A DNA stretch of 64,000 nt. Origin: Patescibacteria group bacterium. Its GTDB lineage: Bacteria > Patescibacteriota > Minisyncoccia > Phycocordibacterales > SIBU01. Under the pieces are notes generated by a model. That model worked only from the letters and a program-made list of their open reading frames with translations. It did not search any database and was not told the DNA's origin. Where the stretch lies: contig JBBTUO010000017.1 of assembly GCA_038063715.1 (NCBI GenBank), positions 22,518 to 86,517 on the forward strand, in the 5' to 3' direction. Numbering within the stretch: the first letter of the stretch is position 1; each line of letters starts with the position of its first letter. Below, one piece after another: positions 5,047-26,530 of the stretch. Position numbers and translations under genes: made by a program.

Positions 5047-6162
5047 ATGAAAAAAGAAAAAAATACAACAGCCAAATCGGGAAATGGAATTAAAAAAGCG
5101 TTCATCACCGGCATCACGGGTCAGGACGGTTCTTACCTAACCGAACTGCTTTTGGAAAAGGGGTACGAGGTTCACGGCCTTATCCGACGCGTTTCAACTT
5201 TTAACACTGGCCGTATCGAACATCTATACCAGGATCCTCATATAAAAGGTACACGCTTATTCCTACATTACGGCGACCTATCGGACGCGAGCAACATCAA
5301 AAAACTGATCTTTACCCTCTCTCCCGATGAGGTCTACAACCTTGGAGCTCAATCCCATGTTAAGGTGTCTTTCGACATGGCTGAATACACCGGAGACATC
5401 ACTGGTCTCGGTGCATTACGCGTACTCGAAGCGGTGAAAGACTTTCAGTTACAGACCGGTAAAAAAGTAAAATTTTATCAGGCATCATCCTCCGAGATGT
5501 TCGGCTCTGCCCTACCCCCTCAAAATGAAAAAACCTCCTTCGCTCCTCGCAGTCCCTACGGTGTCGCCAAAACATTTGCCTACTATGGCACGGTGAACTG
5601 CAGAGAGTCGTACGGAATTTATGCCGTAAACGGTATTCTATTCAATCATGAAAGCCCTCGCCGAGGAGAAACATTCGTCACCCGAAAAATCACTCAAGCG
5701 GTGGCGCGCATCAAGCTCGGCCTTCAAGACACTCTCTATTTGGGAAACTTAGACGCACTACGTGACTGGGGCCATGCTCGTGACTATGTATCCGCAATGT
5801 ATCTTATGATGCAACAGTCAAAACCAGAAGATTATGTTATTGCGACAGGAACACAACATTCGGTACGAGAATTTTGTGAATTAGCCTTTAAGGAAATCAA
5901 CATCAACCTGGAGTGGCGAGGAAAAGGCGATGCGGAACAAGGTGTTGATCCGAAAACCGGCAAGGCGCTTGTACAAATAGACAAACGCTATTTCCGACCC
6001 GCTGAAGTCAACTCACTTATGGGCGATGCTAAAAAGGCATTAAAGGATTTGGGTTGGAAGCCGAAAATCAGTTTCCAGGAATTGGTCAAGGAAATGGTAG
6101 CATCGGACCTAACGGAAGAATCAAAAAAACATATCCTAGCGGCCAGCGGTAAGAAAAAGTAA
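5047..6162 (+). CDS. gmd: GDP-mannose 4,6-dehydratase
   Basis: [33 protein letters not shown]-terminus, a [10 protein letters not shown] catalytic motif, 371 aa. Confidence 0.93.
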
Positions 6163-6168
6163 AGACTG

Positions 6169-7101
6169 ATGGAAAAGAATTCCAAAATCTACATTGCCGG
6201 ACATCTTGGCCTAGTAGGAAGCGCTATTACTCGGGCGCTTGTTTCCCGCAATTTTACCAATCTTGTATTAAAAACAAGAGCTGAGCTTGATTTGCTTGAC
6301 CAGACGGCAGTTGAAAAATTTTTTCAAAAGGAAAAACCTGAATATGTATTTTTGGCTGCCGCAAAGGTTGGCGGTATCATGGCCAACAAAACTCATCCAG
6401 CTGAGTTTATTTATGAAAATCTTCTAGTCCAAGCACATGTTTTGGAGCAAGCTAGAATTAACGGCGTTAAAAAACTTTTATTCCTCGGGAGCTCCTGCAT
6501 TTATCCTCGTCTTTCCGAACAACCCATCAAAGAAGAATATTTTTTATCTGGAGATCTTGAACCAACTAATCGCGCCTATGCCATTGCCAAAATCGCTGGT
6601 ATTGTGACCTGTCAATCTTACAATGCAGAGTACGGCACAAATTTTATTTCTGCGATGCCGACAAATATGTACGGCCCAAATGATAATTTTGATCTTGAAA
6701 ATTCACACGTTCTTCCGGCACTGATTCGCAAATTTCATGAGGCGAAAATAAACGGTAAAAAAGAAGTGGTTTTGTGGGGAACTGGTGTAGCGCGGCGTGA
6801 GTTTCTTCATGTTGATGATTTTGCCGATGCCGCTCTTTTTTTGATGGATAAGTACGAAAGAACCGAAATTATCAATGTCGGAAGTGGAGAAGATGTTTCG
6901 ATAAAAGAATTGGCCGAGATAATAAGAAAAATTGTTGGGTTCTCCGGAACAATTTCATGGAATTCCGACAAGCCAGATGGGATCCTCCGAAAACTTCTGG
7001 ACGTCTCCAAAATTCATACTCTGGGCTGGAAACACACAATTCAACTGGAAGGAGGTATAGCGTCAACATACGCATGGTACGAGAAAAACAGTAACAAATA
7101 A
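6169..7101 (+). CDS. fcl: GDP-L-fucose synthase (GDP-4-keto-6-deoxy-D-mannose 3,5-epimerase/4-reductase)
   Basis: KIYIAGHLGLVGSAI N-terminus, GSSCIYP, YAIAK and MPTNMYGPNDNF motifs. It lies directly downstream of gmd. Confidence 0.9.
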   Translation: MEKNSKIYIAGHLGLVGSAITRALVSRNFTNLVLKTRAELDLLDQTAVEKFFQKEKPEYVFLAAAKVGGIMANKTHPAEFIYENLLVQAHVLEQARINGVKKLLFLGSSCIYPRLSEQPIKEEYFLSGDLEPTNRAYAIAKIAGIVTCQSYNAEYGTNFISAMPTNMYGPNDNFDLENSHVLPALIRKFHEAKINGKKEVVLWGTGVARREFLHVDDFADAALFLMDKYERTEIINVGSGEDVSIKELAEIIRKIVGFSGTISWNSDKPDGILRKLLDVSKIHTLGWKHTIQLEGGIASTYAWYEKNSNK

Positions 7102-7104
7102 AAA

Positions 7105-7923
7105 ATGACCGTCACAATTATAAAACCTAAAAAAACTTTCAGCCTCGAGGATATAAAAGAGGTCTGGCGCTACAAAGGGCTCCTGTATTTTTTTGTCTGG
7201 CGTGATCTAAAGGTACGTTACAAGCAAACGATTGTGGGTATTGGATGGGCGGTTTTCCAGCCTTTTATGACCATGGTGGTCTTCAGTGTGTTCTTCGGAA
7301 AGCTTATACAAGTTCCTTCGGATGGCATTCCCTACCCGATTTTTGTGTACACCGGACTGTTGTTCTGGCAGCTATTTTCAAGCGCACTAAACGACACCAG
7401 CAACTCTCTTATATCGAACTCATCAATCATAACAAAAGTTTATTTTCCAAGAATTATACTGCCCCTCGCCGATACCGCGAATAAGTTCGTAGACCTTTTT
7501 TTTGCAAGTCTGGCTCTCATCTATCTTATGTTTCATTATGGATATACTCCGCAACCAATTGGAATCATCTTAATACCTATTCTGCTCGTCATAACCTCAG
7601 CAACAGCAGTCGGGGTGGGGTTGATTCTAGCCTCAATCAACGTCAAATACCGCGACGTGCGCTATGTTATGCCATTTTTCATGCAGTTACTTCTTTTCTT
7701 GACCCCAGTCATCTACCCTTCGAGTATCGCGGGCAAATATGCATGGCTCTTATCATTTAACCCCATGACTGGGGTTATCAAGGCTGCGCGGGCGGGACTA
7801 CTTGGAACGGGACCGATCGGCTGGCATTCTCTTCTGATATCGGGAATAGCGGCATTAGTATTCCTTATTCTTGGAATTTTCTTCTTTAAAAAAACCGAAA
7901 GATACTTCGCAGATATCGTTTAA
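7105..7923 (+). CDS. wzm: ABC-2 type polysaccharide export permease
   Basis: 272 aa with 6 predicted TM segments and the ABC-2 family pattern. It is followed by the cognate ATPase. Confidence 0.85.
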   Translation: MTVTIIKPKKTFSLEDIKEVWRYKGLLYFFVWRDLKVRYKQTIVGIGWAVFQPFMTMVVFSVFFGKLIQVPSDGIPYPIFVYTGLLFWQLFSSALNDTSNSLISNSSIITKVYFPRIILPLADTANKFVDLFFASLALIYLMFHYGYTPQPIGIILIPILLVITSATAVGVGLILASINVKYRDVRYVMPFFMQLLLFLTPVIYPSSIAGKYAWLLSFNPMTGVIKAARAGLLGTGPIGWHSLLISGIAALVFLILGIFFFKKTERYFADIV

Positions 7924-7927
7924 TTAT

Positions 7928-9202
7928 ATGGCACCAATCATCGAAATAAAAAACCTAAGCAAACGCTACAATATCACCGGACGAAAACGGGGATACGTCG
8001 CATTGCGTGATGTTATTACGGAAAAATTACGGCATCCACTCACGGCGCTTTTAAATCTCGGTAGAAGTATGCTGGGTAAAAACGGAATGGAGATATTCTG
8101 GGCATTAAAAGATATAAACCTCAGTGTTGAAAGGGGTGAGGCAGTAGGTATCATTGGCGCGAACGGCGCTGGAAAATCAACTCTTCTCAAAATTCTCTCT
8201 CGCATCACGCCTCCCACGGAGGGTGAAATTCGGTTGAATGGCAAGCTTGCCTCACTCCTTGAAGTGGGAACAGGCTTTCATCCCGAACTTTCTGGACGAG
8301 AAAATATATATTTAAACGGGGCAATTCTTGGTATGACCCGAAAAGAAATTGCTGATAAATTCGATGACATTGTATCTTTTTCGGGCATCGGAGATTTTAT
8401 TGATACACCTGTCAAACGGTACTCATCTGGTATGTATGTCAGGTTAGCGTTTTCAATTGCGGCTCATATTGAACCGGATATTCTTCTCGTAGACGAAGTA
8501 CTTGCTGTAGGCGACGCTGAGTTCCAAAAAAAATGTCTTGGAAAAATGGAAGAGGTTACCGGTAAGGCTGGAAGAACAATTCTGTTTGTCAGCCACAATA
8601 TGGCTGCAGTGACGAAACTCTGCCCCACTTCAGTCTTGCTATCGCACGGCCGAATCGTGATGACCGGCAAAACAGAGGATGTCATAAATTATTATCTGGC
8701 CGAGGAGTATAAAAAAAGTTCTGACAGCGAGAAACTGCTTCCATTCAAAAATCAAGACCTTGTTATCGAAAAATTTGATGTAACCCAAAACGGCACGCGA
8801 ACCGAGACTCTCGATGGCGACCGTCCATTTGAAATCACAATTAAATTTGAAACTCTGGTCGACCTAACCCAATTCCGCCTTGGAATTTATGTTAAAAACA
8901 GCTTGGGAAGTGTCTTATTCCGATCAACCACCTCTGACTGGAAACCTGAACTAGAAAAAATAAAACGCGGACGGCACAGTGCCACCTTGGTATTCCCCGG
9001 AAAACTTCTAATGCCGGGCAGTTATTTTTTGAACATTCACGCAGGACGCTTTAGCATCATAAATTACATGGCCAAACAGAGTTTGGATCGTACGATAGTC
9101 GTCGGTGCTTCGGCCTACTTCAATCAAGCTCACCCCGCCGAGCGAACCGAAGGCGAGCTTCTGCTTCCGTCCGAATGGAAACTAGAGTCAGTACATAATT
9201 GA
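7928..9202 (+). CDS. wzt: Polysaccharide ABC transporter ATP-binding protein with an extended C-terminal (putative glycan-terminus-binding) domain
   Basis: Walker A GANGAGKST, signature YSSGMYVRLAF, Walker B ILLVDE. About 200 extra C-terminal residues sit beyond the NBD. I chose the ATG at 7928 to avoid overlapping wzm. Confidence 0.85.
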   Translation: MAPIIEIKNLSKRYNITGRKRGYVALRDVITEKLRHPLTALLNLGRSMLGKNGMEIFWALKDINLSVERGEAVGIIGANGAGKSTLLKILSRITPPTEGEIRLNGKLASLLEVGTGFHPELSGRENIYLNGAILGMTRKEIADKFDDIVSFSGIGDFIDTPVKRYSSGMYVRLAFSIAAHIEPDILLVDEVLAVGDAEFQKKCLGKMEEVTGKAGRTILFVSHNMAAVTKLCPTSVLLSHGRIVMTGKTEDVINYYLAEEYKKSSDSEKLLPFKNQDLVIEKFDVTQNGTRTETLDGDRPFEITIKFETLVDLTQFRLGIYVKNSLGSVLFRSTTSDWKPELEKIKRGRHSATLVFPGKLLMPGSYFLNIHAGRFSIINYMAKQSLDRTIVVGASAYFNQAHPAERTEGELLLPSEWKLESVHN

Positions 9203-9212: not shown

Positions 9213-9986
9213 ATGCCGAAAATACTTAACAAACTTAAATGCTCAATTCTGCAAACCTCCTTCAAAGCTGGCGAAGGCCACATAGCCAGCGCTTTTTCAA
9301 TTTTGGATATTTTATGGGTTCTCTATGATCAAATTCTAAAAATTGATCCTCTCAAACCGCGCGATGAAAAAAGGGACAGGTTCTTTCTATCAAAGGGCCA
9401 TGCATCACTAGGATTATACGCGGTCCTGGCGGAAAAAGGTTTTTTTGACAAAGAAGAATTTGAAAGATTCGGAACTTTTGACAGTATTTTAGGCGGACAT
9501 CCGGACAGAAATAAAGTTCCAGGAGTTGAAGCCTCCACCGGATCATTAGGACACGGCTTTCCTATGGCGGTAGGTACGGCGCTAGGGCTTAAAATTACAG
9601 GGTCACAAGCAAAAGTTTTTGTCCTAATCGGCGACGGCGAAGCCAATGAAGGTGCGGTTTGGGAATCGGCACTCCTCGCCTCTCATCACAACTTAACAAA
9701 TCTGATCTGTATAATTGATTACAATCATTCAACTGACAGAGCGCTCCACATTGGCGATTTGGCAAAAAAATTTGAAGCTTTCGGCTGGCGCACGATTTCT
9801 ATTGACGGTCATAACCATAAAGAAATACTCGAATCCCTAAAATTAAAGCTTTCGGAAAAACCGACTGCAATTATTGCCACGACCATTAAAGGTTATGGAT
9901 CAAAAATGATGGAGAATAATCCTGCGTGGCATCGAAAGGCACCGACAAAAAATGAACTTGAAATAATTTTGAAGGAATTAACATGA
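9213..9986 (+). CDS. Transketolase, N-terminal (ThDP pyrophosphate-binding) subunit
   Basis: GHIASAFSILDIL, GHASLGLYAVL and GSLGHGFPMAVGTA..GDGEANEG motifs. This is the split two-gene transketolase form. Confidence 0.88.
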   Translation: MPKILNKLKCSILQTSFKAGEGHIASAFSILDILWVLYDQILKIDPLKPRDEKRDRFFLSKGHASLGLYAVLAEKGFFDKEEFERFGTFDSILGGHPDRNKVPGVEASTGSLGHGFPMAVGTALGLKITGSQAKVFVLIGDGEANEGAVWESALLASHHNLTNLICIIDYNHSTDRALHIGDLAKKFEAFGWRTISIDGHNHKEILESLKLKLSEKPTAIIATTIKGYGSKMMENNPAWHRKAPTKNELEIILKELT

Positions 9987-10867
9987 ATATGCGACAGCAA
10001 TTAATTCAAAGCGGAGAGGCGCTTCTAGCTAAGGACCAGAAGCTGGTTATTCTGCTTGGCGATATGAGTGTGTTCGGCTTCCGAGAAGCTTTCAAAAATT
10101 TCCCGACGAGAATATACAATATAGGAATACTTGAACAATCTACGATAGGATTGGCAGCTGGCCTCGCAATGACAGGAATGGTTCCGATTGTCCATACAAT
10201 TGCTCCTTTTCTAGTTGAACGCTCTTTGGAACAACTGAAAGACGATTTCGGTTATCAAAAGTTGGGAGGAAATTTTGTCAGCATTGGAGCCTCATACGAC
10301 TACTCTGCTTTAGGCTGTACTCACCACTGCCCCGGGGATGTCGGCATCTTGAAAAATATTCCCGGAATGGAAATCGTGGTTCCAGGGACAGCCGCGGAAT
10401 TTGACTCTCTGCTTCGCCAAGCCTACGACAACGGACGGCCAACTTATTATCGACTAAGCGAACAAGAAAACACCGAAAGCTACCCAGTTAAATTTGGCAA
10501 AGCACAAGTAATTAAAAAAGGTAAAAAAGCGACGATCATCGCAGTCGGTCCAGCGCTTAGGCCGTCGCTTGAAGCGTGTGCAAATGATGATGTCACTATA
10601 CTTTATTACACAACCGTCGCTCCTTTTGATAGTGACACCTTGCGAAACAATTGCTCCTCAGGAAGAGTTTTACTATGTGAGCCATACTACACTGGAACCC
10701 TCACAAATGACATCATGTCTGCCCTAAATCCTCTGCCAATTGTAATTGAAAACGTCGGGGTACCACGAGAATTCTTAACCCATTACGGCAAAGCTTCCGA
10801 GCAAGACGCTTACATTGGGATGACCGGTTCAGCCATCCATTCAAAACTAAAAAAACTACTGTTATGA
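9983..10867 (+). CDS. Transketolase, C-terminal (pyrimidine-binding/C-terminal) subunit
   Basis: 294 aa with the pattern of the transketolase central and C-terminal domains. Its start overlaps the stop of the N-terminal subunit gene by 4 nt. Confidence 0.85.
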   Translation: MNMRQQLIQSGEALLAKDQKLVILLGDMSVFGFREAFKNFPTRIYNIGILEQSTIGLAAGLAMTGMVPIVHTIAPFLVERSLEQLKDDFGYQKLGGNFVSIGASYDYSALGCTHHCPGDVGILKNIPGMEIVVPGTAAEFDSLLRQAYDNGRPTYYRLSEQENTESYPVKFGKAQVIKKGKKATIIAVGPALRPSLEACANDDVTILYYTTVAPFDSDTLRNNCSSGRVLLCEPYYTGTLTNDIMSALNPLPIVIENVGVPREFLTHYGKASEQDAYIGMTGSAIHSKLKKLLL

Positions 10868-11823
10868 ACAAGCCCAATTCAAAAACATCTTCGATGGTAA
10901 AATTCCCCAAGTTGCTAATAACTGGTGGAAACGGACTGGTTGGCACAGCTATTAAAAAGCTTGGAATACCAGACGCGGTTTTTGTCGCAAGAGCAGACGC
11001 TGATTTGCGAGATTTTAAGCTAACGAAGGCCCTGTTTGAAAAAATTAAACCGACACACGTCATCCATTTAGCCGCACATGTCGGAGGTGTCGGCGGAAAC
11101 AGCCTTCATCCTGGTGAATACTTCCGTGACAATATTCTAATAAATACCAATGTCTTGGAGGCCGCACGGTTAACGGGCGTAAAAAAACTCGTATCAATGC
11201 TCTCAACCTGCATTTTTCCTGATCCAGCAATATTCCCACTGAAAGCTGAAGACTTGCATAAAGGTCAACCGCATCCATCAAATTTCGGCTATGCCTATGC
11301 TAAAAGAATGCTTGAGGTTCAAACTAACGCCTACAGAAAAGAGTGGGGTTGCGATTATATTACTCTAGTAGGCACTAACATTTATGGTCCGAATGATAAT
11401 TTCAGTTTGGAAAACGGACATGTCGTCTCCTCGCTCGTACATAAGTGTTTTTTAGCAAAGAAAAATAAAACCGATCTTGAGGTTTGGGGAAGTGGAAAAC
11501 CGCTCCGTGAATTTGTTTTGTCTGACGACATCGCGAAACTGACCGTTTGGGCTATTGAAAGCTACGACGAAGCGGAGCCTCTGATGCTATCCTCCGGCAT
11601 TGAGACTAGCATAAAGGAACTGGTGCTTCTAGTAGCGGAAAAAATGAAATTCACAGGACGGGTTATTTTTGACACTAAAAAAACCGACGGACAACTCCGA
11701 AAACCGTCTGACACTACAAAATTTTTAAAATACCTCCCAGAATTTAAATTTACCCCTGTTGAGGATGGTGTAGAAAAAACCGTTAATTGGTTCGTGGAGA
11801 ATTATCCCAATGTCAGAAAATAA
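10864..11823 (+). CDS. NAD(P)-dependent epimerase/reductase, second GDP-L-fucose-synthase-like paralog (GDP-4-keto-6-deoxyhexose epimerase/reductase family)
   Basis: LLITGGNGLVGTAI, LSTCIFPD, YAYAKRMLEV and GTNIYGPNDNF motifs parallel Fcl. Confidence 0.7.
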   Translation: MNKPNSKTSSMVKFPKLLITGGNGLVGTAIKKLGIPDAVFVARADADLRDFKLTKALFEKIKPTHVIHLAAHVGGVGGNSLHPGEYFRDNILINTNVLEAARLTGVKKLVSMLSTCIFPDPAIFPLKAEDLHKGQPHPSNFGYAYAKRMLEVQTNAYRKEWGCDYITLVGTNIYGPNDNFSLENGHVVSSLVHKCFLAKKNKTDLEVWGSGKPLREFVLSDDIAKLTVWAIESYDEAEPLMLSSGIETSIKELVLLVAEKMKFTGRVIFDTKKTDGQLRKPSDTTKFLKYLPEFKFTPVEDGVEKTVNWFVENYPNVRK

Positions 11824-14608: not shown

Positions 14609-14615
14609 AGAATCT

Positions 14616-18799: not shown

Positions 18800-19815
18800 C
18801 ATCCGCAACAGTCTCGTTACAACGTCATTTCTGCACCCTTTTCGATAGAGGGTTTTTGTTTAAAGGGTTAGCCCTTTATAAATCCTTAATGAAACATGCT
18901 GTAAATTTTACCTTATGGATTTTGTGCATGGATACCGAAACCTATAATGTACTAAAACAGCTTAATCTTCCGAACGTACGCCTCCTGACACTCTCTGACG
19001 TGGAGGATGAACAACTCCAAACCGCCAAACAAAACCGTAGTTCACGAAAATACTGCTTTACGCTATCCCCATCGCTCCCCCTCTACATTCTTAAAAATCA
19101 CGATATAGAAAGTATTAGCTACCTAGATGCGGACTTGTACTTTTTTAGCTCTCCGGAGGTTATATATAAAGAGATGGAAAGTAAATCAATTATGATAATT
19201 CCTCACCACCTCGGGCCAACACGGAAAGAAAAAGAAAAGGAGGTCGGCAAGTACAACGTCGGGATGCTAATATTTAAAAAAGATGAGAACGGACTTGCTT
19301 GTCTACGATGGTGGCGTGAACAATGCATTCTGTACTGCGATGACCAGATCCGGCCGGGACACTACGACGACCAAAAGTTCCTTGATTATTTTGAAGAAAA
19401 ATTCAAAGGCGTACACGTGCTAAAAAATCGCGGAGCAAATCTCGCACCATGGAATATTGAGCGTGACAAAATACACATACAGAAAAATATTGTTTTTGTT
19501 GGCAACGACCCGCTAGTATTCTTCCACTTTTCAGGCTTCCAATTGTACGAAAAATCCTTTATGCTACCCTACGGGCCCTACACTTTCCACGAATATACGC
19601 GCTCTTCGCTCTTTAAAGATTTCATCTACAAACCGTACTCTAATTGCTTGTATCAAACATTAAACGATATCCGCCGGATAAGACCTCTATGGAATTACGG
19701 GCTGACGCCCCGACCGAAATTGTTAAAAAGTCTTGAGCAACTTTTTTACAACAGCCTATACTTCCCCACTTGGCGGCTCGCAAAAAAAATAACATCACTA
19801 CTCAAGAACAAATAA
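18796..19815 (+). CDS. Putative GT-A fold glycosyltransferase (nucleotide-diphospho-sugar transferase, DxD motif)
   Basis: An LDADLYFF DxD-containing segment follows a Rossmann-like N-terminal half. Placement in a glycan operon supports the call, but the assignment is tentative. Confidence 0.4.
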   Translation: MTSATVSLQRHFCTLFDRGFLFKGLALYKSLMKHAVNFTLWILCMDTETYNVLKQLNLPNVRLLTLSDVEDEQLQTAKQNRSSRKYCFTLSPSLPLYILKNHDIESISYLDADLYFFSSPEVIYKEMESKSIMIIPHHLGPTRKEKEKEVGKYNVGMLIFKKDENGLACLRWWREQCILYCDDQIRPGHYDDQKFLDYFEEKFKGVHVLKNRGANLAPWNIERDKIHIQKNIVFVGNDPLVFFHFSGFQLYEKSFMLPYGPYTFHEYTRSSLFKDFIYKPYSNCLYQTLNDIRRIRPLWNYGLTPRPKLLKSLEQLFYNSLYFPTWRLAKKITSLLKNK

Positions 19816-19821: not shown

Positions 19822-20256
19822 ATGGAAAAAACAAACAACGAACTTCCCGAAGGCTCCGCCATAATCAAATTACCATCCTTTAGTGGTAAAGGTGGAATTT
19901 TGACAATGATACAGCGCGGAGAAAAATTAAATGAAGTGCCGTTTGAAATTGAAAGAGTGCTAGTTACCACTTGCGGGCAAAGTAGCGAGGAAAGAGGGGC
20001 TCACACTCATCACGAGTCTCGGCAAATCTTTTTTGTCCTATCAGGTGGGTGCACCATTTTACTTGATAATGGCAAGGACAAGTCATCGGTAACCCTGACA
20101 AACGCCTCGGAAGGCCTTCTCATGGAACCATACGTCTGGCACGTGATGAAAGATTTTAAGGAAAACACGGTCACGCTCGCCCTCTTTAATACAGTTTATG
20201 ACGAAAAAGATTACATTAGAAATTATGAAGAATTCCTAAAATGCCTAAAAAAATAA
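19822..20256 (+). CDS. WxcM/FdtA-like cupin sugar 3,4-ketoisomerase (NDP-4-keto-6-deoxyhexose 3,4-isomerase)
   Basis: 144 aa cupin with a ..PFEIERVLVTT....RGAHTHHESRQIFFVLSGGCTILLDNG.. pattern typical of FdtA/QdtA. It is immediately followed by a DegT aminotransferase, the classic FdtA-FdtB pairing. Confidence 0.62.
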   Translation: MEKTNNELPEGSAIIKLPSFSGKGGILTMIQRGEKLNEVPFEIERVLVTTCGQSSEERGAHTHHESRQIFFVLSGGCTILLDNGKDKSSVTLTNASEGLLMEPYVWHVMKDFKENTVTLALFNTVYDEKDYIRNYEEFLKCLKK

Positions 20257-21347
20257 CAGTGCCGTCATTCGACACCACTCGACAAGTAAAAGAAATCCGA
20301 CGGGAGATAAATGCGGCCTTAAAAAAAGTGTTGGACTCTGGAAAATTTGTCATGGGCAATGAAGTGAATATGTTCGAGACCGAATTCAGCACCTACATAG
20401 GTACACGCTACGGCATAGGGGTAAATTCAGGCACTGACGCCCTTAAAATCGCTCTAAAGGCCTTCGGAGTGGGCATTGGAGATGAGGTCATTACAGCCAC
20501 AAATACAGCCACTCCGACAGTAAGTGCTATCCGAGAAACCGGAGCTACCCCCGTCTTGGTAGACAGTGATGAATACCACCTAATTGATGTCAAAAAGATT
20601 GAATCGGCCATCACTTCCAAAACAAAAGCACTTATCCCCGTCCATCTATACGGCCAATCTGCCGACATGGTCACCATCATGAGGATAGCCAATAAACACA
20701 ATCTCAAAGTGATCGAAGACTGCGCCCAGTCAACAGGTGCGACAATAGGAAAGAAAAAGTCAGGAACCTTCGGACATGCATCCTGTTTCAGCTTCTTCCC
20801 CACCAAAAATCTAGGCGCTCTAGGCGATGGTGGCATTATCCTAACTAACGACAAAGACATTGCAGACATCTGCAAACGGCTTCGCCGATACGGCATGGAC
20901 GCCACATATTACGCCCACATCGAAGGTTACAACAGCCGACTTCAGGAATTTCAGGCGGCCATTCTCCGTATAAAGTTGTCCCGTCTTAATTCTTACAACA
21001 AACGAAGACAGGAGATCGCGGCGCGTTATATGTCAGAAGTAAAAAATCCTACCGTGAAAATACCGAGGTCAAAAAAGGGCTTCTCGCATATCTTCCATCA
21101 GTTCGTGATCGAAGCGGCAAACCGTGAGAAGTTTTTGGAACATCTTAAAGTTAATGATGTGGGCTATGGCATTCATTATCCGTTCCCTATTCATCTCCAA
21201 AAGGCCTATGAATTCTTGGGTTATAAAAGCGGTTCTTTTCCAATAGCCGAAGCGGCGGCCCAAAGAATTGTTTCTCTGCCGATCTTTCCTGAACTTACAG
21301 AAAAAGAAATAGGTCACGTCATAGCGACCATCAATAGCTTCAAATAG
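20241..21347 (+). CDS. DegT/DnrJ/EryC1/StrS family PLP-dependent sugar aminotransferase
   Basis: 368 aa with the family-typical organisation, a conserved lysine region (SFFPTKNLGALGDGG) and GNEVNMFETEF. Confidence 0.88.
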   Translation: MPKKITVPSFDTTRQVKEIRREINAALKKVLDSGKFVMGNEVNMFETEFSTYIGTRYGIGVNSGTDALKIALKAFGVGIGDEVITATNTATPTVSAIRETGATPVLVDSDEYHLIDVKKIESAITSKTKALIPVHLYGQSADMVTIMRIANKHNLKVIEDCAQSTGATIGKKKSGTFGHASCFSFFPTKNLGALGDGGIILTNDKDIADICKRLRRYGMDATYYAHIEGYNSRLQEFQAAILRIKLSRLNSYNKRRQEIAARYMSEVKNPTVKIPRSKKGFSHIFHQFVIEAANREKFLEHLKVNDVGYGIHYPFPIHLQKAYEFLGYKSGSFPIAEAAAQRIVSLPIFPELTEKEIGHVIATINSFK

Positions 21348-22392: not shown

Positions 22393-24258
22393 GTGAAAAC
22401 ATATATTCTTGGAATTTCAGCATACTACCACGATTCCTCGGCAGCACTGCTGTGCAATGGAGAAATTATCGCCGCTGCTCAAGAGGAAAGATTTTCTAGA
22501 AAAAAAGCGGACCCAAGATTCCCCAAATCATCTATTGAATACTGCCTCGCTGAAGCCAGAATTGGAATTGAAGACATTGACCATGTAGTATTTTATGAAA
22601 ATTCTTTAAGAAAATTCGAGAGGCTCTGTGAGTCGTATTTCGCGTTTGTACCCCGTGGTTTTGATTTCTTCAAACATTCATTTCGAACATGGTCAAGCTC
22701 AAAATTACAGACAAAAAACAACATTCTGAAAGAGCTGGGTGGTAAATTTTGTGGAGAATTCCACTTCACGGAACATCACGCTTCTCATGCGGCGAGCGCC
22801 TTCTTCCCATCTCCTTATGACGAAGCGGCGATTCTCACAATTGACGCTGTCGGAGAATGGTCAACAAGCTCTCTAGCTTACGGAAACGACCATAACATCA
22901 AAATGCTGAAAGAAATGCGTTTCCCGCATTCTCTGGGGATGCTCTACTCGGCATTTACCTATTACACTGGATTTAAGGTCAACTCGGGCGAGTATAAACT
23001 TATGGGACTTGCCCCTTACGGACGACCTTTATATGCTGACCTTATTAAAAAAAATCTCATTGAGATATATCCTGACGGATCGTTATGGATGGATATGAGC
23101 TATTTCAATTACTGTTATGGTTCTACCATGACCTCGCCTAAATTTCATCAATTGTTTGGCGGATCGCCTCGAGCGCCGGAAACCGATATCCAGCAAAAAG
23201 ACATGGACATAGCAGCCTCCATTCAAGCAGTAACCGAAGAAATAATCATAAAGATGGCCCAATATGCACAAAAAGAGACAGGATCAAAAAATCTTGTTTT
23301 AGCCGGAGGGGTGGCCTTAAATTGCGTCGCGAATGGGAAATTGTTACGAGAAGGACCTTTCGAAAACATCTGGGTACAGCCAGCCGCAGGGGACGCCGGA
23401 GGCTCTTTAGGCGCCGCCTTACTTTTCTGGCACCAAAAATTAAGCAACACGAGAATACCACAAAAAACTGACTCCCAGAAAGGTACCATTTTGGGACCCA
23501 CATTTTCAAATAGTGATATAAAAAGTATATTGGATAGTCGTACACTACACTATGAATATTTCGCGGATGAATCGAAGTTGTTGGAAGCGGTAACGGAAGC
23601 ACTGACTGAAGAAAAAATAATCGGCTGGTTTCAAGGCCGAATGGAATACGGGCCACGATCGCTAGGATGTCGAAGCATTATCGGCGATGCACGATCTCAA
23701 AAAATGCAACAGATCATGAATCTTAAAATAAAATTCCGAGAGTCCTTCCGGCCATTCGCTCCAAGCGTGCTGAAAGAATTTGCTCACGAAATTTTTGAAG
23801 TTACGCCCGAAGTCGACGATCCGTATATGCTCTTCGTAGCTCCGATAAAAGAAAATTGCAAACGACAGTTGACCGCGGAAGAGAAAACCAAAATGCAAGA
23901 TCCCGACTTAAGAATCAGGGTAACTGTTCCCCGCTCAAAATATCCCGCGATTACCCACGTTGACTATTCTGCAAGAATTCAAACGGTAGATGAAAAGAGG
24001 CATGGGCGCTATTACCGTTTGATAAAAAAATTCCATGAAAAAACCGGCTCTCCCCTTATAGTCAATACCAGCTTTAATATCCGTGGCGAGCCAATAGTGT
24101 GCGATCCCGAAGACGCTATACTCTGTTTTTTAGCAACAGATATGGACTGTTTAGTAATGGAAAATTTTATCATTAAGAAAGAAGAGCAAGACAAAAATTT
24201 GCTTGCATACGCGAATCTTTCCAGGGAGCGCCATAAAAAAATGTACGCTCTAGATTAA
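22393..24258 (+). CDS. NodU/CmcH-family O-carbamoyltransferase
   Basis: ILGISAYYHDSSAALLCNGEIIAAAQEERFSRKK is the hallmark N-terminus. The C-terminal YrdC-like half is present, 621 aa. The start codon is GTG. Confidence 0.9.
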   Translation: MKTYILGISAYYHDSSAALLCNGEIIAAAQEERFSRKKADPRFPKSSIEYCLAEARIGIEDIDHVVFYENSLRKFERLCESYFAFVPRGFDFFKHSFRTWSSSKLQTKNNILKELGGKFCGEFHFTEHHASHAASAFFPSPYDEAAILTIDAVGEWSTSSLAYGNDHNIKMLKEMRFPHSLGMLYSAFTYYTGFKVNSGEYKLMGLAPYGRPLYADLIKKNLIEIYPDGSLWMDMSYFNYCYGSTMTSPKFHQLFGGSPRAPETDIQQKDMDIAASIQAVTEEIIIKMAQYAQKETGSKNLVLAGGVALNCVANGKLLREGPFENIWVQPAAGDAGGSLGAALLFWHQKLSNTRIPQKTDSQKGTILGPTFSNSDIKSILDSRTLHYEYFADESKLLEAVTEALTEEKIIGWFQGRMEYGPRSLGCRSIIGDARSQKMQQIMNLKIKFRESFRPFAPSVLKEFAHEIFEVTPEVDDPYMLFVAPIKENCKRQLTAEEKTKMQDPDLRIRVTVPRSKYPAITHVDYSARIQTVDEKRHGRYYRLIKKFHEKTGSPLIVNTSFNIRGEPIVCDPEDAILCFLATDMDCLVMENFIIKKEEQDKNLLAYANLSRERHKKMYALD

Positions 24259-24265
24259 AATAGTT

Positions 24266-24628
24266 ATGAATTTTATCCAAAAAATCTGGTCAAAAATATC
24301 ACGCCGAATACTGAAACTCGGGCGTAATTACGTTTTGATAATTTTGTATTATGTTATGTTACCCATCATAGCTTTAGCGGGTTCCAAATTAGTTCTTAAA
24401 AAGTCTACGGAAAAAAGTCTTTGGCTAAAGTGGGGTGACAAAATAAATCCAGATATGGCCCCTGCGCAGATTAAAAAGGGTTGGATTGTGAACTTTTTCT
24501 CTTGGACTTTTAAATCTGGCAATCTCTGGGCCATATTTTTATTGCCCTTTATTCTGATCGTGAAAGCAACCGAAGACCCTTCCAGCACAACTTCACCGGA
24601 ACTAGCAATGATTTATACACTTTTCTGA
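24266..24628 (+). CDS. Small membrane protein of unknown function (possibly the SxtJ-like partner of carbamoyltransferases)
   Basis: 120 aa with 2-3 hydrophobic helices, translationally coupled to the carbamoyltransferase. Confidence 0.35.
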   Translation: MNFIQKIWSKISRRILKLGRNYVLIILYYVMLPIIALAGSKLVLKKSTEKSLWLKWGDKINPDMAPAQIKKGWIVNFFSWTFKSGNLWAIFLLPFILIVKATEDPSSTTSPELAMIYTLF

Positions 24629-24630
24629 TT

Positions 24631-25659
24631 ATGCTTTACATCCGTCTCATTTTGTCACTAATAGCCTCCATCATTGGAATTATACTAATAATTCCAGGTT
24701 TAATGCTCATGTTTCCGTTCTGGTTTGTTTCTCTTGTTGCCAAAATGGTCGCAAAATTCAAACCCACATTGTCAACATGGGAAGATATAATCGAATTCGA
24801 CCCAGAGCTTGGCTGGCGCTCTAAACCAAATATTGATGCGCACATGGATGTAGACGGAATATATCATATTACCGTAGGTCCCGATGGGTGGAGAGGCAAC
24901 CAAAGCCTGAAAAAAAGTGACACTATTGTCATCGGCGACTCATTTGTGTTTGGGCAAGGTACAGATGACAAAAATCATTTTGCTAACCTAACAAAACATA
25001 CTCAAGTCAAACCTATAGGAGCTCCAGGATATGGCGTTGTACATTATTTGCTTCTGTTAAAAAATCTGTCCTCGGAATTGAAAGGAAAATTGGTGCTGTG
25101 GTTTGTCTATACAGGCAACGACTACCGAGAAAGCGTCCGACCCAGTTCCTATGGCTATCATTTCCCTTTTGTTTTTCGCGATAATGCAACAGAAGCTTGG
25201 GAAATTCAAACATCTCACATACGAGATACGAAGTTACCTTTTCACTTCGAAAAGGGTTATAAAGTATCGATACCGGAACTTGCTGATCTTTTTTCCAAAA
25301 ATTACTTTTCCGATTATGCCTATGGGGCATTTGAGTATCTGGTCGTCGAAGCCAAAAAACACTGCGAAACTCATGGAGCAAAGTTTGCAGTTGTTACCCT
25401 GCCCATTAAGTGGTGTTTGGACGACAGTTACCTGCACAAATTGAAACGCCATTCAGGCAATCCAGAAAACTTTTCTCTGAAATACCCTGACGAGCAAGCA
25501 GGGATTATTTGCAAACGGCACGGAATAACTTTTAAAGCTGGCTCGAGCGAATTTACCACCGAAGACTTTCTGCCAAACGATCTGCACTGGTCTCAAGGTG
25601 GCAACAAAAAAGCCGCTAAAATTATTGATGTATTGCATAAAGATTTCACTTCGAAATAA
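24631..25659 (+). CDS. Membrane-anchored SGNH/GDSL-type hydrolase-like protein
   Basis: An N-terminal TM helix, then a VIGDSFVFGQG (GDS-x) block and a distal DxxH-like region. Confidence 0.45.
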   Translation: MLYIRLILSLIASIIGIILIIPGLMLMFPFWFVSLVAKMVAKFKPTLSTWEDIIEFDPELGWRSKPNIDAHMDVDGIYHITVGPDGWRGNQSLKKSDTIVIGDSFVFGQGTDDKNHFANLTKHTQVKPIGAPGYGVVHYLLLLKNLSSELKGKLVLWFVYTGNDYRESVRPSSYGYHFPFVFRDNATEAWEIQTSHIRDTKLPFHFEKGYKVSIPELADLFSKNYFSDYAYGAFEYLVVEAKKHCETHGAKFAVVTLPIKWCLDDSYLHKLKRHSGNPENFSLKYPDEQAGIICKRHGITFKAGSSEFTTEDFLPNDLHWSQGGNKKAAKIIDVLHKDFTSK

Positions 25660-25660
25660 A

Positions 25661-26530
25661 ATGATTATAGTCAAACTTCAAGGGGGCCTCGGTAATCAAA
25701 TGTTCCAGTACGCGCTGGGACGCAATCTTTCGCTTATCCATAATGTGCCTTTTAAAATTGACTATTCGTATTTAAAAACTTCCAACCAAAGTAACCGCTC
25801 ATTTAAACTTGACGGCTTTCAAATTCGTACCGAGGAGGCAACACAAAAAGAAGTGACCTCCTACACTGGGTTAAATCAAAAAATCTTGGACAGATTCCGC
25901 ACAAGCTCGAATAAAAAGCACATAAAGGAATCATTTCATGGATTTAACGAATATGTTTTGAGGCGCGGCGATGGTTATTTTGATGGCCATTGGAATATGC
26001 AAAGTGAAAAATATTTTCACCCCAATGAAACCGCAATTAGAAAGGATTTTCAACTTACAAAGCCTTTCGGGGCAGACGCGCAAAAAATTGCCGAGACAAT
26101 TGCGAAAGAACCGGCGTCAGTCAGTCTACACATCCGCCGTGGCGACTATGTGTCAATCTCTAAGGTTTCCGAAGTCCACGGTGTCCTACCACTCTCTTAC
26201 TATGAAACGGCCTGCGAGAAAATACTTGATAAATTTCCCAATGCGCATTTTTTTATATTTTCAGACGACATCGCGTGGGCTAAGGAGAATTTCCCTAATA
26301 AGTACAGAGTTAGCTTTGTATCGGATCCAGAAATTACCGACCACGAGGAACTGATACTGATGAGTATGTGCCTGCACAACATCATTGCTAATTCTACTTT
26401 CAGCTGGTGGGGCGCTTGGCTCAATCAAAATCCGGAAAAAATTGTTGTTGCACCAACTCCTTGGTTTCAGTCCTCAACCCACAATACTGACAACATTGTC
26501 CCCGATAATTGGTGGAAAATTAAAATATAA
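25661..26530 (+). CDS. GT11 family alpha-1,2-fucosyltransferase
   Basis: MIIVKLQGGLGNQMFQYA, HIRRGDYV and IIANSTFSWWGAWLNQNPEKIVVAP closely match the conserved blocks of Helicobacter FutC-type alpha-1,2-FucTs. I chose the start at MIIVK. Confidence 0.85.
   Translation: MIIVKLQGGLGNQMFQYALGRNLSLIHNVPFKIDYSYLKTSNQSNRSFKLDGFQIRTEEATQKEVTSYTGLNQKILDRFRTSSNKKHIKESFHGFNEYVLRRGDGYFDGHWNMQSEKYFHPNETAIRKDFQLTKPFGADAQKIAETIAKEPASVSLHIRRGDYVSISKVSEVHGVLPLSYYETACEKILDKFPNAHFFIFSDDIAWAKENFPNKYRVSFVSDPEITDHEELILMSMCLHNIIANSTFSWWGAWLNQNPEKIVVAPTPWFQSSTHNTDNIVPDNWWKIKI

What the first reader, a model, noticed from the sequence alone, without database searches (positions are those of the whole stretch)
5047..26530. 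Complete fucosylation toolkit including both an alpha-1,2 (GT11) and an alpha-1,3 (GT10) fucosyltransferase: potential Lewis/H-antigen-like glycan
gmd (5047-6162) and fcl (6169-7101) supply GDP-L-fucose. The locus also encodes a GT10 enzyme (11810-12916) carrying the Helicobacter FutA-type motif CYEN...GYITEKI...VPVYWG. It further encodes a GT11 enzyme (25661-26530) with near-textbook FutC blocks (GGLGNQMFQYA, HIRRGDYV, IIANSTFSWWGAWL, NPEKI). In Helicobacter pylori this enzyme pair builds Lewis-x/Lewis-y host-mimicking epitopes. Here both sit in one ABC-transporter-dependent glycan locus of what looks like a reduced-genome, possibly episymbiotic bacterium. A multiply fucosylated, possibly host-mimicking surface glycan is therefore plausible.
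Basis: partly seen in the sequence, partly recalled or inferred. Interest (0 to 1): 0.7.

Follow-up and report, generated by a model that had tools for sequence, protein, structure and literature searches.

The report
Fucose-adding surface-sugar locus in Patescibacteria
The genes are real: an ultra-small Patescibacteria bacterium has a large, conserved surface-sugar gene cluster that makes activated fucose and carries two fucose-transferase-type enzymes, but nothing indicates it copies human Lewis or H blood-group sugars, so it is a fairly ordinary member of a known kind.

Summary
Observation confirmed. All four named genes sit at the stated coordinates and belong to the stated families:
- GMD passes its NCBIfam equivalog cut-off.
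- Fcl is an E. coli-type GDP-fucose synthase.
- The GT10 scores PF00852 E 1e-16, and its best solved fold is the H. pylori alpha1,3-FucT.
- The GT11 scores PF01531 E 4e-29 over its full length.

The window is a Patescibacteria MAG. NCBI already names these proteins "glycosyltransferase family 10", "alpha-1,2-fucosyltransferase" and "GDP-L-fucose synthase".

The order [GMD-Fcl]-Wzm-Wzt-(split transketolase-like pair)-GT10...GT11 recurs across Taylor-, Vogel-, Zambryski-, Nomura-, Magasanik- and Saccharibacteria-labelled genomes. This supports GDP-fucose as the donor.

Interpretation partly supported. A fucosylated glycan exported by an ABC transporter is likely. The alpha1,2/alpha1,3 linkages are only family-level inferences. 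The Lewis/H host-mimicry idea has no support:
- The GT10 acceptor domain shows no sequence similarity to FutA.
- No GT25-type galactosyltransferase was detected.
- The locus is full of methyl-, carbamoyl-, amino-deoxy- and nonulosonate-type functions.
- Relatives come from groundwater and lakes.

New member of a known kind; modest interest.

The parts
1459..3747 (-). Wzy_C (O-antigen-ligase-like) membrane protein with C-terminal TPR repeats. Candidate enzyme that attaches the exported glycan to its final acceptor.
   Evidence: PF04932 67.6 bits plus TPR families. Orthologue next to the locus in L002/L009, L016 and L019.
4752..5000 (+). HTH_17 small DNA-binding protein at the head of the long + strand operon.
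   Evidence: PF12728 E 1.5e-10. The same family heads the Magasanikbacteria locus L004/L005.
5047..6162 (+). GDP-mannose 4,6-dehydratase (GMD).
   Evidence: TIGR01472 558 bits, above the 415 cut-off. PDB GMDs score 444-487 bits; GDP-heptose dehydratase 7us5 scores 119 bits.
6169..7101 (+). GDP-L-fucose synthase, E. coli (WcaG/GFS) type.
   Evidence: NF047922 472.7 bits against a 500 cut-off. 1bsv scores 374 bits, E 7e-111. GSSCIYP, YAIAK and the His motif are present.
7105..7923 (+). Wzm, ABC-2 permease.
   Evidence: PF01061 57.9 bits.
7928..9202 (+). Wzt ATPase with a C-terminal Wzt_C glycan-binding domain. The start is probably ATG 7928.
   Evidence: PF00005 79.4 bits and PF14524 41.6 bits, above the 30.4 cut-off. 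Start codon scan. Homologues are 422-427 aa.
9213..9986 (+). Split transketolase-like ThDP enzyme, N-terminal subunit.
   Evidence: PF00456 E 6.7e-41. NF004559 246 bits.
9983..10867 (+). Split transketolase-like enzyme, pyrimidine-binding/C-terminal subunit (divergent).
   Evidence: PF02779 and PF02780. Only 72-76 bits to the transketolase and DXS models.
10864..11823 (+). Second GDP-L-fucose synthase, human FX/TSTA3 type. Its stop abuts the GT10 start.
   Evidence: Human FX 4bkp scores 331 bits, E 4.6e-98; E. coli type scores 169 bits. Catalytic S/T-x-C, YxxxK and His are kept. NCBI names it GDP-L-fucose synthase.
11810..12916 (+). GT10-family glycosyltransferase, a putative fucosyltransferase. 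The probable true start is 11825.
   Evidence: PF00852 61.4 bits. 2nzw E 3.4e-13. AF2 model pLDDT 88.5. Best PDB fold is 2nzx/2nzw. 997 homologues, mostly Patescibacteria.
12918..13931 (+). SAM methyltransferase immediately after the GT10.
   Evidence: PF13489 E 3e-20. Orthologue in the same position in L001/L007.
13928..15497 (+). CMP-sugar synthetase (CTP_transf_3) plus a NeuB-like synthase without a SAF domain. Together a nonulosonic/ulosonic-acid branch.
   Evidence: PF02348 and PF03102. PseF 114 bits and NeuB 193 bits, both below their cut-offs.
15499..19815 (+). TylF O-methyltransferase, MptE-like protein, TIGR04325 methyltransferase, FkbM methyltransferase and a DxD-containing unknown protein.
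   Evidence: This block is conserved in L001/L007.
19822..21347 (+). FdtA-like 3,4-ketoisomerase plus a DegT aminotransferase (3-amino-3,6-dideoxyhexose branch).
   Evidence: PF05523 E 1e-32; PF01041 E 5e-113.
22393..25659 (+). Carbamoyltransferase, a small membrane protein and a membrane-anchored SGNH-like protein. These lie upstream of the GT11 in the second + strand unit.
   Evidence: PF02543 and PF16861. GDSxxxG block seen in the translation, plus a weak NF047475 hit.
25661..26530 (+). GT11-family glycosyltransferase, a putative alpha-1,2-fucosyltransferase.
   Evidence: PF01531 102.4 bits over the full length. HIRRGDY motif. AF2 model pLDDT 92.6. Nearest folds are AtFUT1, POFUT1, NodZ and FUT8. 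NCBI names it alpha-1,2-fucosyltransferase.
26542..27456 (+). SAM methyltransferase immediately after the GT11.
   Evidence: PF08241 E 1.3e-19.

Best explanation
The finding covers the first third of a glycan-biosynthesis region of at least 50 kb in a Patescibacteria (CPR) genome. The region builds a cell-surface glycan by the ABC-transporter-dependent route.

Shown by homology:
- GMD plus two GDP-L-fucose synthases, one E. coli-type and one FX-type, make GDP-L-fucose.
- Wzm/Wzt, with a Wzt_C glycan-binding domain, form the exporter.
- One GT10-family and one GT11-family GT-B enzyme are both full-length, with the nucleotide-sugar-binding motifs intact.

Inferred:
- Both enzymes transfer L-fucose from GDP-fucose, on the cytoplasmic face, to a lipid-linked glycan.
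- That glycan also carries amino-deoxyhexose, nonulosonate-type and possibly heptose residues, and is O-methylated and carbamoylated.
- Wzm/Wzt exports the finished chain.
- The Wzy_C-TPR ligase-like protein attaches it to a surface acceptor. Patescibacteria are generally regarded as lacking an outer membrane (background knowledge, not tested here), so that acceptor would be a protein, the cell wall or a lipid.

The GT10 is the glycosyltransferase most constantly linked to Wzm/Wzt in relatives. The GT11 is the one found directly beside Fcl-GMD in some relatives. Linkage types, acceptors and any resemblance to Lewis or H epitopes are not predictable from the sequence. Host mimicry of the H. pylori type is unlikely.
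For: Family and equivalog tests. Discrimination of the GMD from a heptose dehydratase. The two Fcl types. GT10 and GT11 models and fold matches to fucosyltransferases only.

Synteny comes from tblastn of window proteins against 85 fetched loci and from gene tables.
- In 18 of the 20 loci I grouped as CPR-type (the 24 printed, minus L023, L024, L026 and L071), Wzt lies on the same strand within 9 kb of the GT10. It is directly adjacent in L009, L021, L022, L025 and L040, and within ~0.2 kb in L016 and L019.
- GMD and/or Fcl lies within 10 kb in 13 of the 20.
- GT11 lies within 10 kb in 10 of the 20.
- L025 and L040 carry a GT11-Fcl-GMD trio.

Thirteen contig lengths are shared between the GT10 and GT11 hit lists, which suggests the same contigs carry both genes.

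Operon-like packing: 19 + strand genes from 4752 to 21347 with gaps of 46 nt or less or overlaps, and 5 genes from 22393 to 27456.
Against: No biochemical data exist for any member of this GT10 or GT11 subclade. The GT10 acceptor domain has no sequence-level similarity to characterised enzymes. Fcl is 27 bits below its curated equivalog cut-off. The Magasanikbacteria locus L004/L005/L021 has GT10 and GT11 but no GMD or Fcl within +/-10 kb. No initiating phosphoglycosyltransferase was recognised in the window. The final acceptor of the glycan is unknown.
Confidence: 0.65

Rival explanations
1. The GT10/GT11 pair builds Lewis-x/Lewis-y or H-type epitopes (Fuc alpha1,3 and alpha1,2 on Gal-GlcNAc) that mimic a host, as in Helicobacter pylori.
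For: The same two CAZy families and the same GDP-fucose supply as in H. pylori. The C-terminal GT10 motif closely matches H. pylori FucT.
Against: The acceptor-binding half of the GT10 cannot be aligned to FucT, and structural identity is only 14-16%. It has no heptad-repeat tail and is only 368 aa. No GT25-type or other LacNAc-building family was found in Pfam scans of the window. The locus is rich in methyl-, carbamoyl-, amino-deoxy- and ulosonic-acid functions. Relatives are groundwater and lake Patescibacteria, whose hosts are other microbes (PMC11623550).
Confidence: 0.05
2. One or both transferases use a different GDP-sugar made in the same locus, rather than L-fucose. Candidates are a (6-deoxy)heptose from the HddA/GmhB/NTP-transferase genes, or an unusual sugar made with the split transketolase-like enzyme that sits between Wzt and the GT10.
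For: The Tkt-like pair is inserted between Wzt and the GT10 in the window and in at least 9 related loci. It travels with FX-type Fcl and is duplicated with it in L071. Heptose-type genes co-occur in L021, L027, L071 and the window. L004/L005 has GT10 and GT11 but no GMD or Fcl within 10 kb.
Against: All characterised activities of GT10 and GT11 use GDP-L-fucose (family-level knowledge from CAZy and Pfam). Core loci L008, L009, L010, L025 and L040 have GT10 with GMD-Fcl and no Tkt or heptose genes. The gene that abuts the GT10 is a close homologue of human GDP-L-fucose synthase with its catalytic residues intact. The GMD is not of the heptose-dehydratase type. No GmhA was found in the window.
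Confidence: 0.15
3. The fucosyltransferase genes are decaying or non-functional passengers in a variable glycan island.
For: One neighbouring gene (UDP-glucose dehydrogenase-like, 50802-51707) looks truncated.
Against: Both ORFs are full-length relative to 15-16 homologues, with the family's invariant columns intact. The models are confident. The genes are tightly packed in operons.
Confidence: 0.03

Closest known systems
Helicobacter pylori Lewis-antigen O-chain fucosylation (FutA/FutB GT10, FutC GT11, GMD/WbcJ)
   Same: The same two glycosyltransferase families and de novo GDP-fucose synthesis. The GT10 nucleotide-binding motif YENxxxxGYxTEK...PxYWG is shared. The best solved fold for the GT10 model is the H. 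pylori enzyme.
   Different: Here the genes sit in one Wzm/Wzt locus. The N-terminal acceptor domain is unrelated at sequence level. There are no heptad repeats or membrane tail. No LacNAc-building enzymes were recognised. The organism is an environmental Patescibacterium, not an animal pathogen. From memory: H. pylori genes are scattered and export uses Wzk, not Wzm/Wzt.
ABC-transporter-dependent O-polysaccharide systems with a capped chain end read by the Wzt C-terminal domain (E. coli O8/O9a WbdD-Wzt; Klebsiella O12/Raoultella WbbB-Wzt; Rhizobium etli CE3 O-antigen with a methylated-fucose terminus)
   Same: Wzm plus Wzt carrying a Wzt_C domain above the Pfam cut-off. Methyltransferases and a Kdo/NulO-type branch in the same operon. 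GMD/Fcl are in the locus, as in R. etli (recalled from memory).
   Different: No WbdD- or WbbB-type terminator was recognised. The organism is generally regarded as having no outer membrane or lipid A-core acceptor (background knowledge, not tested here). Cap identity and Wzt_C specificity are untested.
S-layer glycoprotein glycan (slg) clusters of monoderm bacteria, e.g. Geobacillus stearothermophilus NRS 2004/3a (Wzm/Wzt, methylated terminal sugar, Wzy_C-type oligosaccharyl:protein transferase WsaB)
   Same: An ABC-transporter route in a bacterium thought to lack an outer membrane. A Wzy_C-family enzyme lies beside the locus. Deoxy-sugar and methyltransferase content is similar.
   Different: The slg clusters are rhamnan-based and lack GT10 and GT11 (from memory). 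No S-layer or pilin target is identified here. An LTD/PKD surface protein lies at 55818-57332 and flanks the Wzy_C gene in L002, which is only suggestive.
E. coli O86/O126/O127/O128 O-antigen clusters (gmd-fcl plus GT11 enzymes WbwK/WbnK, WbgL, WbiQ, WbsJ)
   Same: gmd, fcl and a GT11 enzyme in one polysaccharide locus. The GT11-Fcl-GMD trio in L025 and L040 mirrors this arrangement.
   Different: Those clusters are Wzx/Wzy-dependent and contain no GT10 (from memory). Here export is by Wzm/Wzt.

Membership tests
GT10 (Pfam PF00852, alpha1,3/4-fucosyltransferases) | Profile HMM score above the curated gathering threshold. | tested here: met
   61.4 bits against 23.9, E 1.2e-16, residues 246-329. 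The precomputed PF00852 is on all close homologues.
GT10 (Pfam PF00852, alpha1,3/4-fucosyltransferases) | Conserved GDP-fucose-binding motif (F/Y-x-L-x-F/Y-E-N...Y-x-T-E-K; N240, Y246, E249 and K250 in H. pylori FucT numbering). | tested here: met
   FSLCYENVSDNKGYITEK aligns with FNLCFENTQGYGYVTEK of 2nzw. Y265, E266, N267 and K278 are invariant and E277 is at least 90% conserved in 16 homologues. The residue numbering of the H. pylori enzyme is counted from the alignment.
GT10 (Pfam PF00852, alpha1,3/4-fucosyltransferases) | Two-domain GT-B fold closest to a solved GT10 enzyme. | tested here: met
   Model pLDDT 88.5. The top Foldseek PDB hits are 2nzx/2nzw over ~400 columns, TM 0.51-0.56.
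GT10 (Pfam PF00852, alpha1,3/4-fucosyltransferases) | N-terminal acceptor domain with the catalytic base (E95 in H. pylori FucT). | tested here: inconclusive
   Profile and sequence alignments stop at the C-terminal domain. An invariant E125 in an LWEG..P.N context resembles GENESPN only by eye, and against a sequence recalled from memory.
GT10 (Pfam PF00852, alpha1,3/4-fucosyltransferases) | Transfers L-fucose from GDP-fucose in alpha1,3/alpha1,4 linkage. | not testable with these tools
   Needs an enzyme assay. Only guilt by association with GMD/Fcl is available.
GT11 (Pfam PF01531, alpha1,2-fucosyltransferases) | Profile HMM score above the gathering threshold over the full length. | tested here: met
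   102.4 bits against 23.9, profile positions 30-297 of 298.
GT11 (Pfam PF01531, alpha1,2-fucosyltransferases) | HxRRGDY GDP-fucose motif shared with GT23, GT65 and GT68. | tested here: met
   HIRRGDYV in the translation. H157, R159, R160, D162 and Y163 are invariant and G161 is at least 90% conserved in 17 sequences. The profile links this segment to the FUT8 HVRRTD segment.
GT11 (Pfam PF01531, alpha1,2-fucosyltransferases) | Fold of the fucosyltransferase GT-B superfamily. | tested here: met
   Model pLDDT 92.6. The 18 best PDB matches are all fucosyltransferases (AtFUT1, POFUT1), and NodZ and FUT8 also appear in the list; non-fucosyl GT9 heptosyltransferases start at rank 19. No GT11 structure is detectable in the PDB.
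GT11 (Pfam PF01531, alpha1,2-fucosyltransferases) | alpha1,2-fucosylation of a galactoside. | not testable with these tools
   Needs an enzyme assay.
GDP-L-fucose de novo pathway (GMD + Fcl) | GMD equivalog, distinct from the GDP-heptose 4,6-dehydratase. | tested here: met
   TIGR01472 558 bits, above 415. 444-487 bits to three solved GMDs (E. coli, human, one other) against 119 bits to 7us5.
GDP-L-fucose de novo pathway (GMD + Fcl) | Fcl equivalog score and catalytic Ser/Cys, Tyr/Lys and His. | tested here: inconclusive
   NF047922 scores 472.7, below 500, for 6169-7101 and 228 for 10864-11823. However, the first scores 374 bits to E. coli GFS and the second 331 bits to human FX, and the catalytic motifs are present in both.
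ABC-transporter-dependent glycan export (Wzm/Wzt) | ABC-2 permease plus an ATPase with a Wzt_C domain. | tested here: met
   PF01061 57.9 bits, PF00005 79.4 bits, PF14524 41.6 bits above 30.4.
Lewis/H-antigen mimicry system (H. pylori type) | Enzymes that build the Gal-beta1,3/4-GlcNAc acceptor (e.g. a GT25 galactosyltransferase). | tested here: not met
   No such family appeared in Pfam scans of ~70 ORFs across the window. Generic GT2 and GT4 enzymes of unknown specificity are present, so absence is not proven.
Lewis/H-antigen mimicry system (H. pylori type) | An animal host that displays the mimicked epitope. | tested here: not met
   NCBI labels the organism Patescibacteria. The nearest loci are groundwater, Lake Baikal, Lac Pavin and sediment MAGs. 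The habitat of this particular MAG (GCA_964356825.1) was not retrievable.

The most novel reading that the evidence does not exclude
In Patescibacteria, the GT10 enzyme is not a side-chain decorator. It is functionally coupled to the exporter and adds the terminal fucose, which the adjacent methyltransferase may then methylate. The Wzt_C domain reads this cap as the 'finished chain' signal. The result would be a fucose-based terminator for ABC-transporter-dependent glycans. The conserved fucose/ulosonic-acid glycan it completes would be the surface structure these episymbionts present to their microbial hosts. A variant of this reading is that the Tkt-like/FX-type Fcl module inserted between Wzt and the GT10 makes a new GDP-linked sugar for this cap.
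Probability: 0.15. Interest if true: 0.55.

Novelty: new member of a known kind. Interest (0 to 1): 0.3.

Why it matters
The surface chemistry of Patescibacteria is essentially unstudied. A recent Saccharibacteria pilus study calls their glycosylation processes unexplored (PMC11623550). My searches found no paper on fucosyltransferases or O-antigen-like loci in this group. A glycan locus conserved across many Patescibacteria classes, with a fixed Wzm-Wzt-GT10 core, gives a concrete and testable candidate for the surface structure involved in host attachment, phage resistance or recognition. The GT10 and GT11 subclades are also abundant (997 hits for GT10, and all 8,000 candidates scored for GT11) and uncharacterised, so they are a possible source of enzymes for fucosylated-oligosaccharide synthesis. 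The claim of Lewis-type host mimicry should not be propagated.

Tried and rejected
1. NCBIfam gave no hit for the GT10 or the GT11, so no equivalog-level naming is possible.
2. The PDB sequence search found no GT11 structure, either with the single sequence or with a profile. Only a weak FUT8 motif match appeared.
3. I tried to map the H. pylori catalytic base E95 and R195 onto the GT10 by profile alignment to a FucT sequence recalled from memory. Only the C-terminal domain aligned, so the result is inconclusive, and the recalled sequence counts only as a lead.
4. I considered that 'gmd/fcl' could be heptose-modifying enzymes of the DmhA/WcbK or MlghC type. For the GMD this is rejected: 119 bits to 7us5 against 444-487 bits to true GMDs. 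For Fcl it is weakened: the E. coli GFS is the best hit, although entries deposited as 'GDP-L-fucose synthase' (7anh and others), which I recall as C. jejuni enzymes, also score highly.
5. I considered that the second Fcl-like gene is something other than a fucose synthase. This is rejected after the 331-bit match to human FX (about 50% identity by eye over the alignment) with the catalytic residues conserved, and after the NCBI naming.
6. I looked for GmhA to complete a heptose pathway. There is none in the window.
7. Literature searches for a transketolase role in O-antigen, heptose or GDP-4-keto sugar chemistry found nothing relevant.
8. The tRNA scan of the window was empty.

Full report
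**1. Checking the observation**

- The 11810-12916 product contains CYEN, GYITEKI and VPVYWG.
- The 25661-26530 product contains GGLGNQMFQYA, HIRRGDYV, IIANSTFSWWGAWL and NPEKI.

Profile searches give scores that exclude chance.
- GMD: PF16363 E 4.6e-145, and TIGR01472 558 bits against a curated cut-off of 415.
- Fcl: NF047922 472.7 bits, just below its 500 cut-off.
- GT10: PF00852 61.4 bits against 23.9.
- GT11: PF01531 102.4 bits against 23.9, covering nearly the whole profile.

Two small corrections to gene starts follow from homologue alignments and start-codon scans.
- The GT10 probably starts at ATG 11825, one base after the upstream stop.
- Wzt probably starts at ATG 7928.
- The GT11 start at 25661 is right.

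**2. What surrounds it**

Pfam and NCBIfam scans of about 70 ORFs show that almost the whole window, from 1.4 kb to about 55.8 kb, is glycan biosynthesis.

The first unit is a 19-gene + strand block (4752-21347) with gaps of 46 nt or less or overlaps. In order it encodes:
- an HTH_17 protein;
- GMD and Fcl;
- Wzm, and Wzt with a Wzt_C domain;
- a split transketolase-like pair;
- a second Fcl-like gene, then the GT10;
- a methyltransferase;
- a CMP-sugar synthetase and a NeuB-like synthase;
- three more methyltransferases (TylF, TIGR04325, FkbM);
- an MptE-like protein and a DxD protein;
- FdtA and a DegT aminotransferase.

After one gene on the opposite strand, a 5-gene + strand unit (22393-27456) encodes a carbamoyltransferase, a small membrane protein, an SGNH-like protein, the GT11 and another methyltransferase.

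Downstream lie:
- HddA/GmhB/NTP-transferase-type genes;
- many GT2 and GT4 enzymes and two PMT_2 (GT-C) proteins;
- a second carbamoyltransferase;
- RmlB (equivalog met), RmlA-like and RmlD-like genes;
- a sugar C-methyltransferase.

Upstream, on the minus strand, lies a Wzy_C ligase-like protein with TPR repeats.

**3. The fucose supply is real and duplicated**
- The GMD scores 444-487 bits to three solved GMDs (E. coli, human and one other). It scores only 119 bits to the C. jejuni GDP-D-glycero-D-manno-heptose 4,6-dehydratase 7us5. It is therefore not a heptose dehydratase in disguise.
- The Fcl at 6169-7101 is closest to E. coli GDP-fucose synthetase (374 bits).
It scores 331 bits to 4bkp against 169 bits to the E. 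coli type.
- Both enzymes retain the Ser/Thr-x-Cys, YxxxK and His catalytic motifs.
- The FX-type gene belongs to a very large prokaryotic family that NCBI and JGI name GDP-L-fucose synthase.
- Its stop abuts the GT10 start. This is the strongest local argument that the GT10 uses GDP-L-fucose.

**4. The two transferases**

GT10:
- Sequence similarity to solved GT10 enzymes (H. pylori FucT, mango FUT13, Arabidopsis FUT11, human FUT9) is confined to about 80-100 residues of the C-terminal nucleotide-binding domain.
- A profile alignment to a recalled H. pylori FucT sequence also stops there.
- An AlphaFold2 model built from 16 homologues is confident (pLDDT 88.5).
- Its best PDB match over the full length is H. 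pylori alpha1,3-FucT (2nzx/2nzw; E 8e-12; TM 0.51-0.56; 14-16% identity).
- Membership of GT10 is therefore met. The acceptor domain is too divergent to predict acceptor or linkage.

GT11:
- The model is confident (pLDDT 92.6).
- Its 18 best PDB matches are all fucosyltransferases of the same GT-B superfamily (Arabidopsis FUT1 and POFUT1), with NodZ and FUT8 further down; GT9 heptosyltransferases appear from rank 19.
- No GT11 structure exists in the PDB copy by sequence.

**5. Organism and relatives**

Proteins identical to those in the window are recorded by NCBI as 'MAG: glycosyltransferase family 10', 'MAG: alpha-1,2-fucosyltransferase' and 'MAG: GDP-L-fucose synthase', all '[Patescibacteria group bacterium]'. 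They lie on a contig of about 90 kb of GCA_964356825.1.

The GT10 has 997 detectable homologues. The closest (40-60% identity) are labelled Taylor-, Vogel-, Zambryski- and Magasanikbacteria, Paceibacterota and Minisyncoccia. All 8,000 candidates scored for the GT11 passed the E-value threshold, and its closest hits have the same taxonomic distribution. Thirteen contig lengths are shared between the two hit lists, which suggests that the same contigs carry both genes.

**6. Synteny**

I fetched gene tables for three homologues and 80 GT10 loci from GTDB species representatives. I then ran tblastn with 30 window proteins against all 85 loci. The counts below use 20 loci that I grouped as CPR-type: the 24 printed, minus L023, L024, L026 and L071.
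- The order [GMD-Fcl]-Wzm-Wzt-(TktN-TktC-...)-GT10-...-GT11 recurs among these loci.
- Wzt is on the same strand within 9 kb of the GT10 in 18 of the 20.
- Wzt is directly adjacent to the GT10 in L009, L021, L022, L025 and L040, and within ~0.2 kb in L016 and L019.
- GMD and/or Fcl are within 10 kb in 13 of the 20.
- GT11 is within 10 kb in 10 of the 20.
- In L025 and L040 the genes split into two trios, Wzm-Wzt-GT10 and GT11-Fcl-GMD.
- More distant GT10 relatives in Desulfobacterales, Bacteroidota, Omnitrophota, Chlamydiota and Dependentiae often keep GMD/Fcl nearby but not Wzm/Wzt.
- One exception weakens the donor argument: the Magasanikbacteria locus has GT10 and GT11 but no GMD or Fcl within +/-10 kb.

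**7. Most likely mechanism**

Shown:
- a de novo GDP-L-fucose pathway;
- a Wzm/Wzt exporter with a glycan-binding Wzt_C domain;
- intact GT10 and GT11 enzymes, with no membrane-spanning segment evident by eye in either translation (not formally tested);
- a Wzy_C-type ligase-like gene beside the locus.

Inferred:
- The glycan is assembled on a lipid carrier at the cytoplasmic face.
- The two enzymes fucosylate it.
- It is further built from amino-deoxyhexose, ulosonic-acid and perhaps heptose units, and is methylated and carbamoylated.
- Wzm/Wzt exports it.
- It is then ligated to a surface acceptor. Patescibacteria are generally regarded as lacking an outer membrane (background knowledge, not tested here), so the acceptor is more likely a protein, the cell wall or a membrane lipid than lipid A-core.

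I put 0.65 on this overall picture.

**8. Rivals**

- Lewis/H mimicry (0.05). It shares the enzyme families with H. pylori but nothing else. The acceptor domain is not FutA-like. No LacNAc-building family was found. The glycan chemistry implied by the neighbouring genes is unlike a mammalian epitope. The ecological setting is groundwater and lake episymbionts of microbes (PMC11623550).
- A non-fucose donor (0.15). The unexplained transketolase-like pair keeps this alive. The pair is always inserted between Wzt and the GT10, travels with FX-type Fcl, and is duplicated with it in L071. Heptose-type genes add to the case. Against it stand the core loci that lack those genes, the close identity of the abutting gene to human FX, and the uniform donor specificity known for both families.
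- Gene decay (0.03). The sequence conservation contradicts it.

**9. Comparison with known systems and novelty**

The locus works like an ABC-transporter-dependent O-polysaccharide or S-layer-glycan cluster that also contains gmd-fcl and fucosyltransferases. It resembles a blend of the Wzm/Wzt capped-chain systems and the E. coli gmd-fcl-GT11 clusters. It does not resemble the H. pylori Lewis system.

It is a new member of known kinds. The individual families are already annotated by NCBI. I found no paper describing this conserved Patescibacteria locus.

The most novel reading not excluded is that the GT10 supplies a (methyl)fucose cap read by Wzt_C, or that the Tkt/FX module makes a new GDP-sugar for that cap. 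I give this about 0.15.

Overall interest is 0.3. The locus is useful as a handle on CPR surface chemistry and as a pool of uncharacterised fucosyltransferases, but it is not surprising to a glycobiologist.

Noticed in passing
window 9213-10867 (+); also L006, L007, L011-L014, L020, L021, L027, L071: A split transketolase-like ThDP enzyme is inserted between Wzt and the GT10 in the window and in at least 9 related loci. It travels with the FX-type Fcl and is duplicated together with it in a Syntrophorhabdaceae genome (L071). Its C-terminal subunit is divergent, scoring 72-76 bits to both the transketolase and DXS models. Its role in a glycan locus is unexplained. It might supply sedoheptulose-7-P, or extend a keto-sugar by two carbons.
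   Followed up: partly
window 10864-11823 (+): A second GDP-L-fucose synthase of the human FX/TSTA3 type (331 bits to 4bkp) sits in the same operon as an E. coli-type Fcl. Its stop abuts the GT10 start.
   Followed up: yes
window 27446-29725: HddA-like kinase, GmhB-like phosphatase and a sugar-1-P nucleotidyltransferase suggest a GDP-heptose branch. All three score below their equivalog cut-offs, and no GmhA/SIS isomerase is detectable anywhere in the window (tblastn).
   Followed up: partly
window 12918-13931, 15499-16164, 17032-17868, 17849-18799, 26542-27456, 36239-36916, 44149-45381; 22393-24258 and 33025-34770: Seven methyltransferases, including a TIGR04325/LIC12133-type enzyme and a sugar C-methyltransferase, plus two NodU/CmcH-type carbamoyltransferases, sit in one glycan region. 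This implies an unusually heavily modified glycan.
   Followed up: no
window 13928-17031 (+): A NeuB-like synthase without a SAF domain (293 aa), a CMP-sugar synthetase and a weak MptE/Maf-like protein lie together. The MptE-like gene accompanies NeuB in L006, L007, L009, L010, L014 and L018. This may be an ulosonic-acid (Kdn/NulO-type) residue with its own transferase.
   Followed up: partly
window 50802-51707 (-): A UDP-glucose/GDP-mannose dehydrogenase-like ORF is only 301 aa. It lacks the C-terminal domain and has a poorly matching N-terminus. It may be a truncated remnant.
   Followed up: no
window 55818-57332 (-); L002 555-2057: A secreted-type protein with Lamin-tail and PKD domains borders the glycan region here. 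A similar protein lies next to the Wzy_C ligase-like gene in the Vogelbacteria locus. It is a candidate surface protein, and possibly a glycosylation target.
   Followed up: no
window 57244-59076 (-): A VirD4/TraG-type coupling-protein-like ATPase (T4SS-DNA_transf, TrwB_AAD_bind, TraG-D_C) lies just beyond the glycan region.
   Followed up: no
window 4752-5000 (+); L004/L005 start: A small HTH_17 DNA-binding protein heads the long glycan operon both here and in the Magasanikbacteria locus. It may be a conserved regulator.
   Followed up: no
L081, L046, L053: Campylobacterota MAGs (an uncultured Helicobacter sp., Sulfurimonas and Sulfuricurvum) encode full-length relatives (31-35% identity over residues ~20-360) of this GT10 subfamily. 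H. pylori FucT, by contrast, aligns only over the C-terminal core.
   Followed up: no
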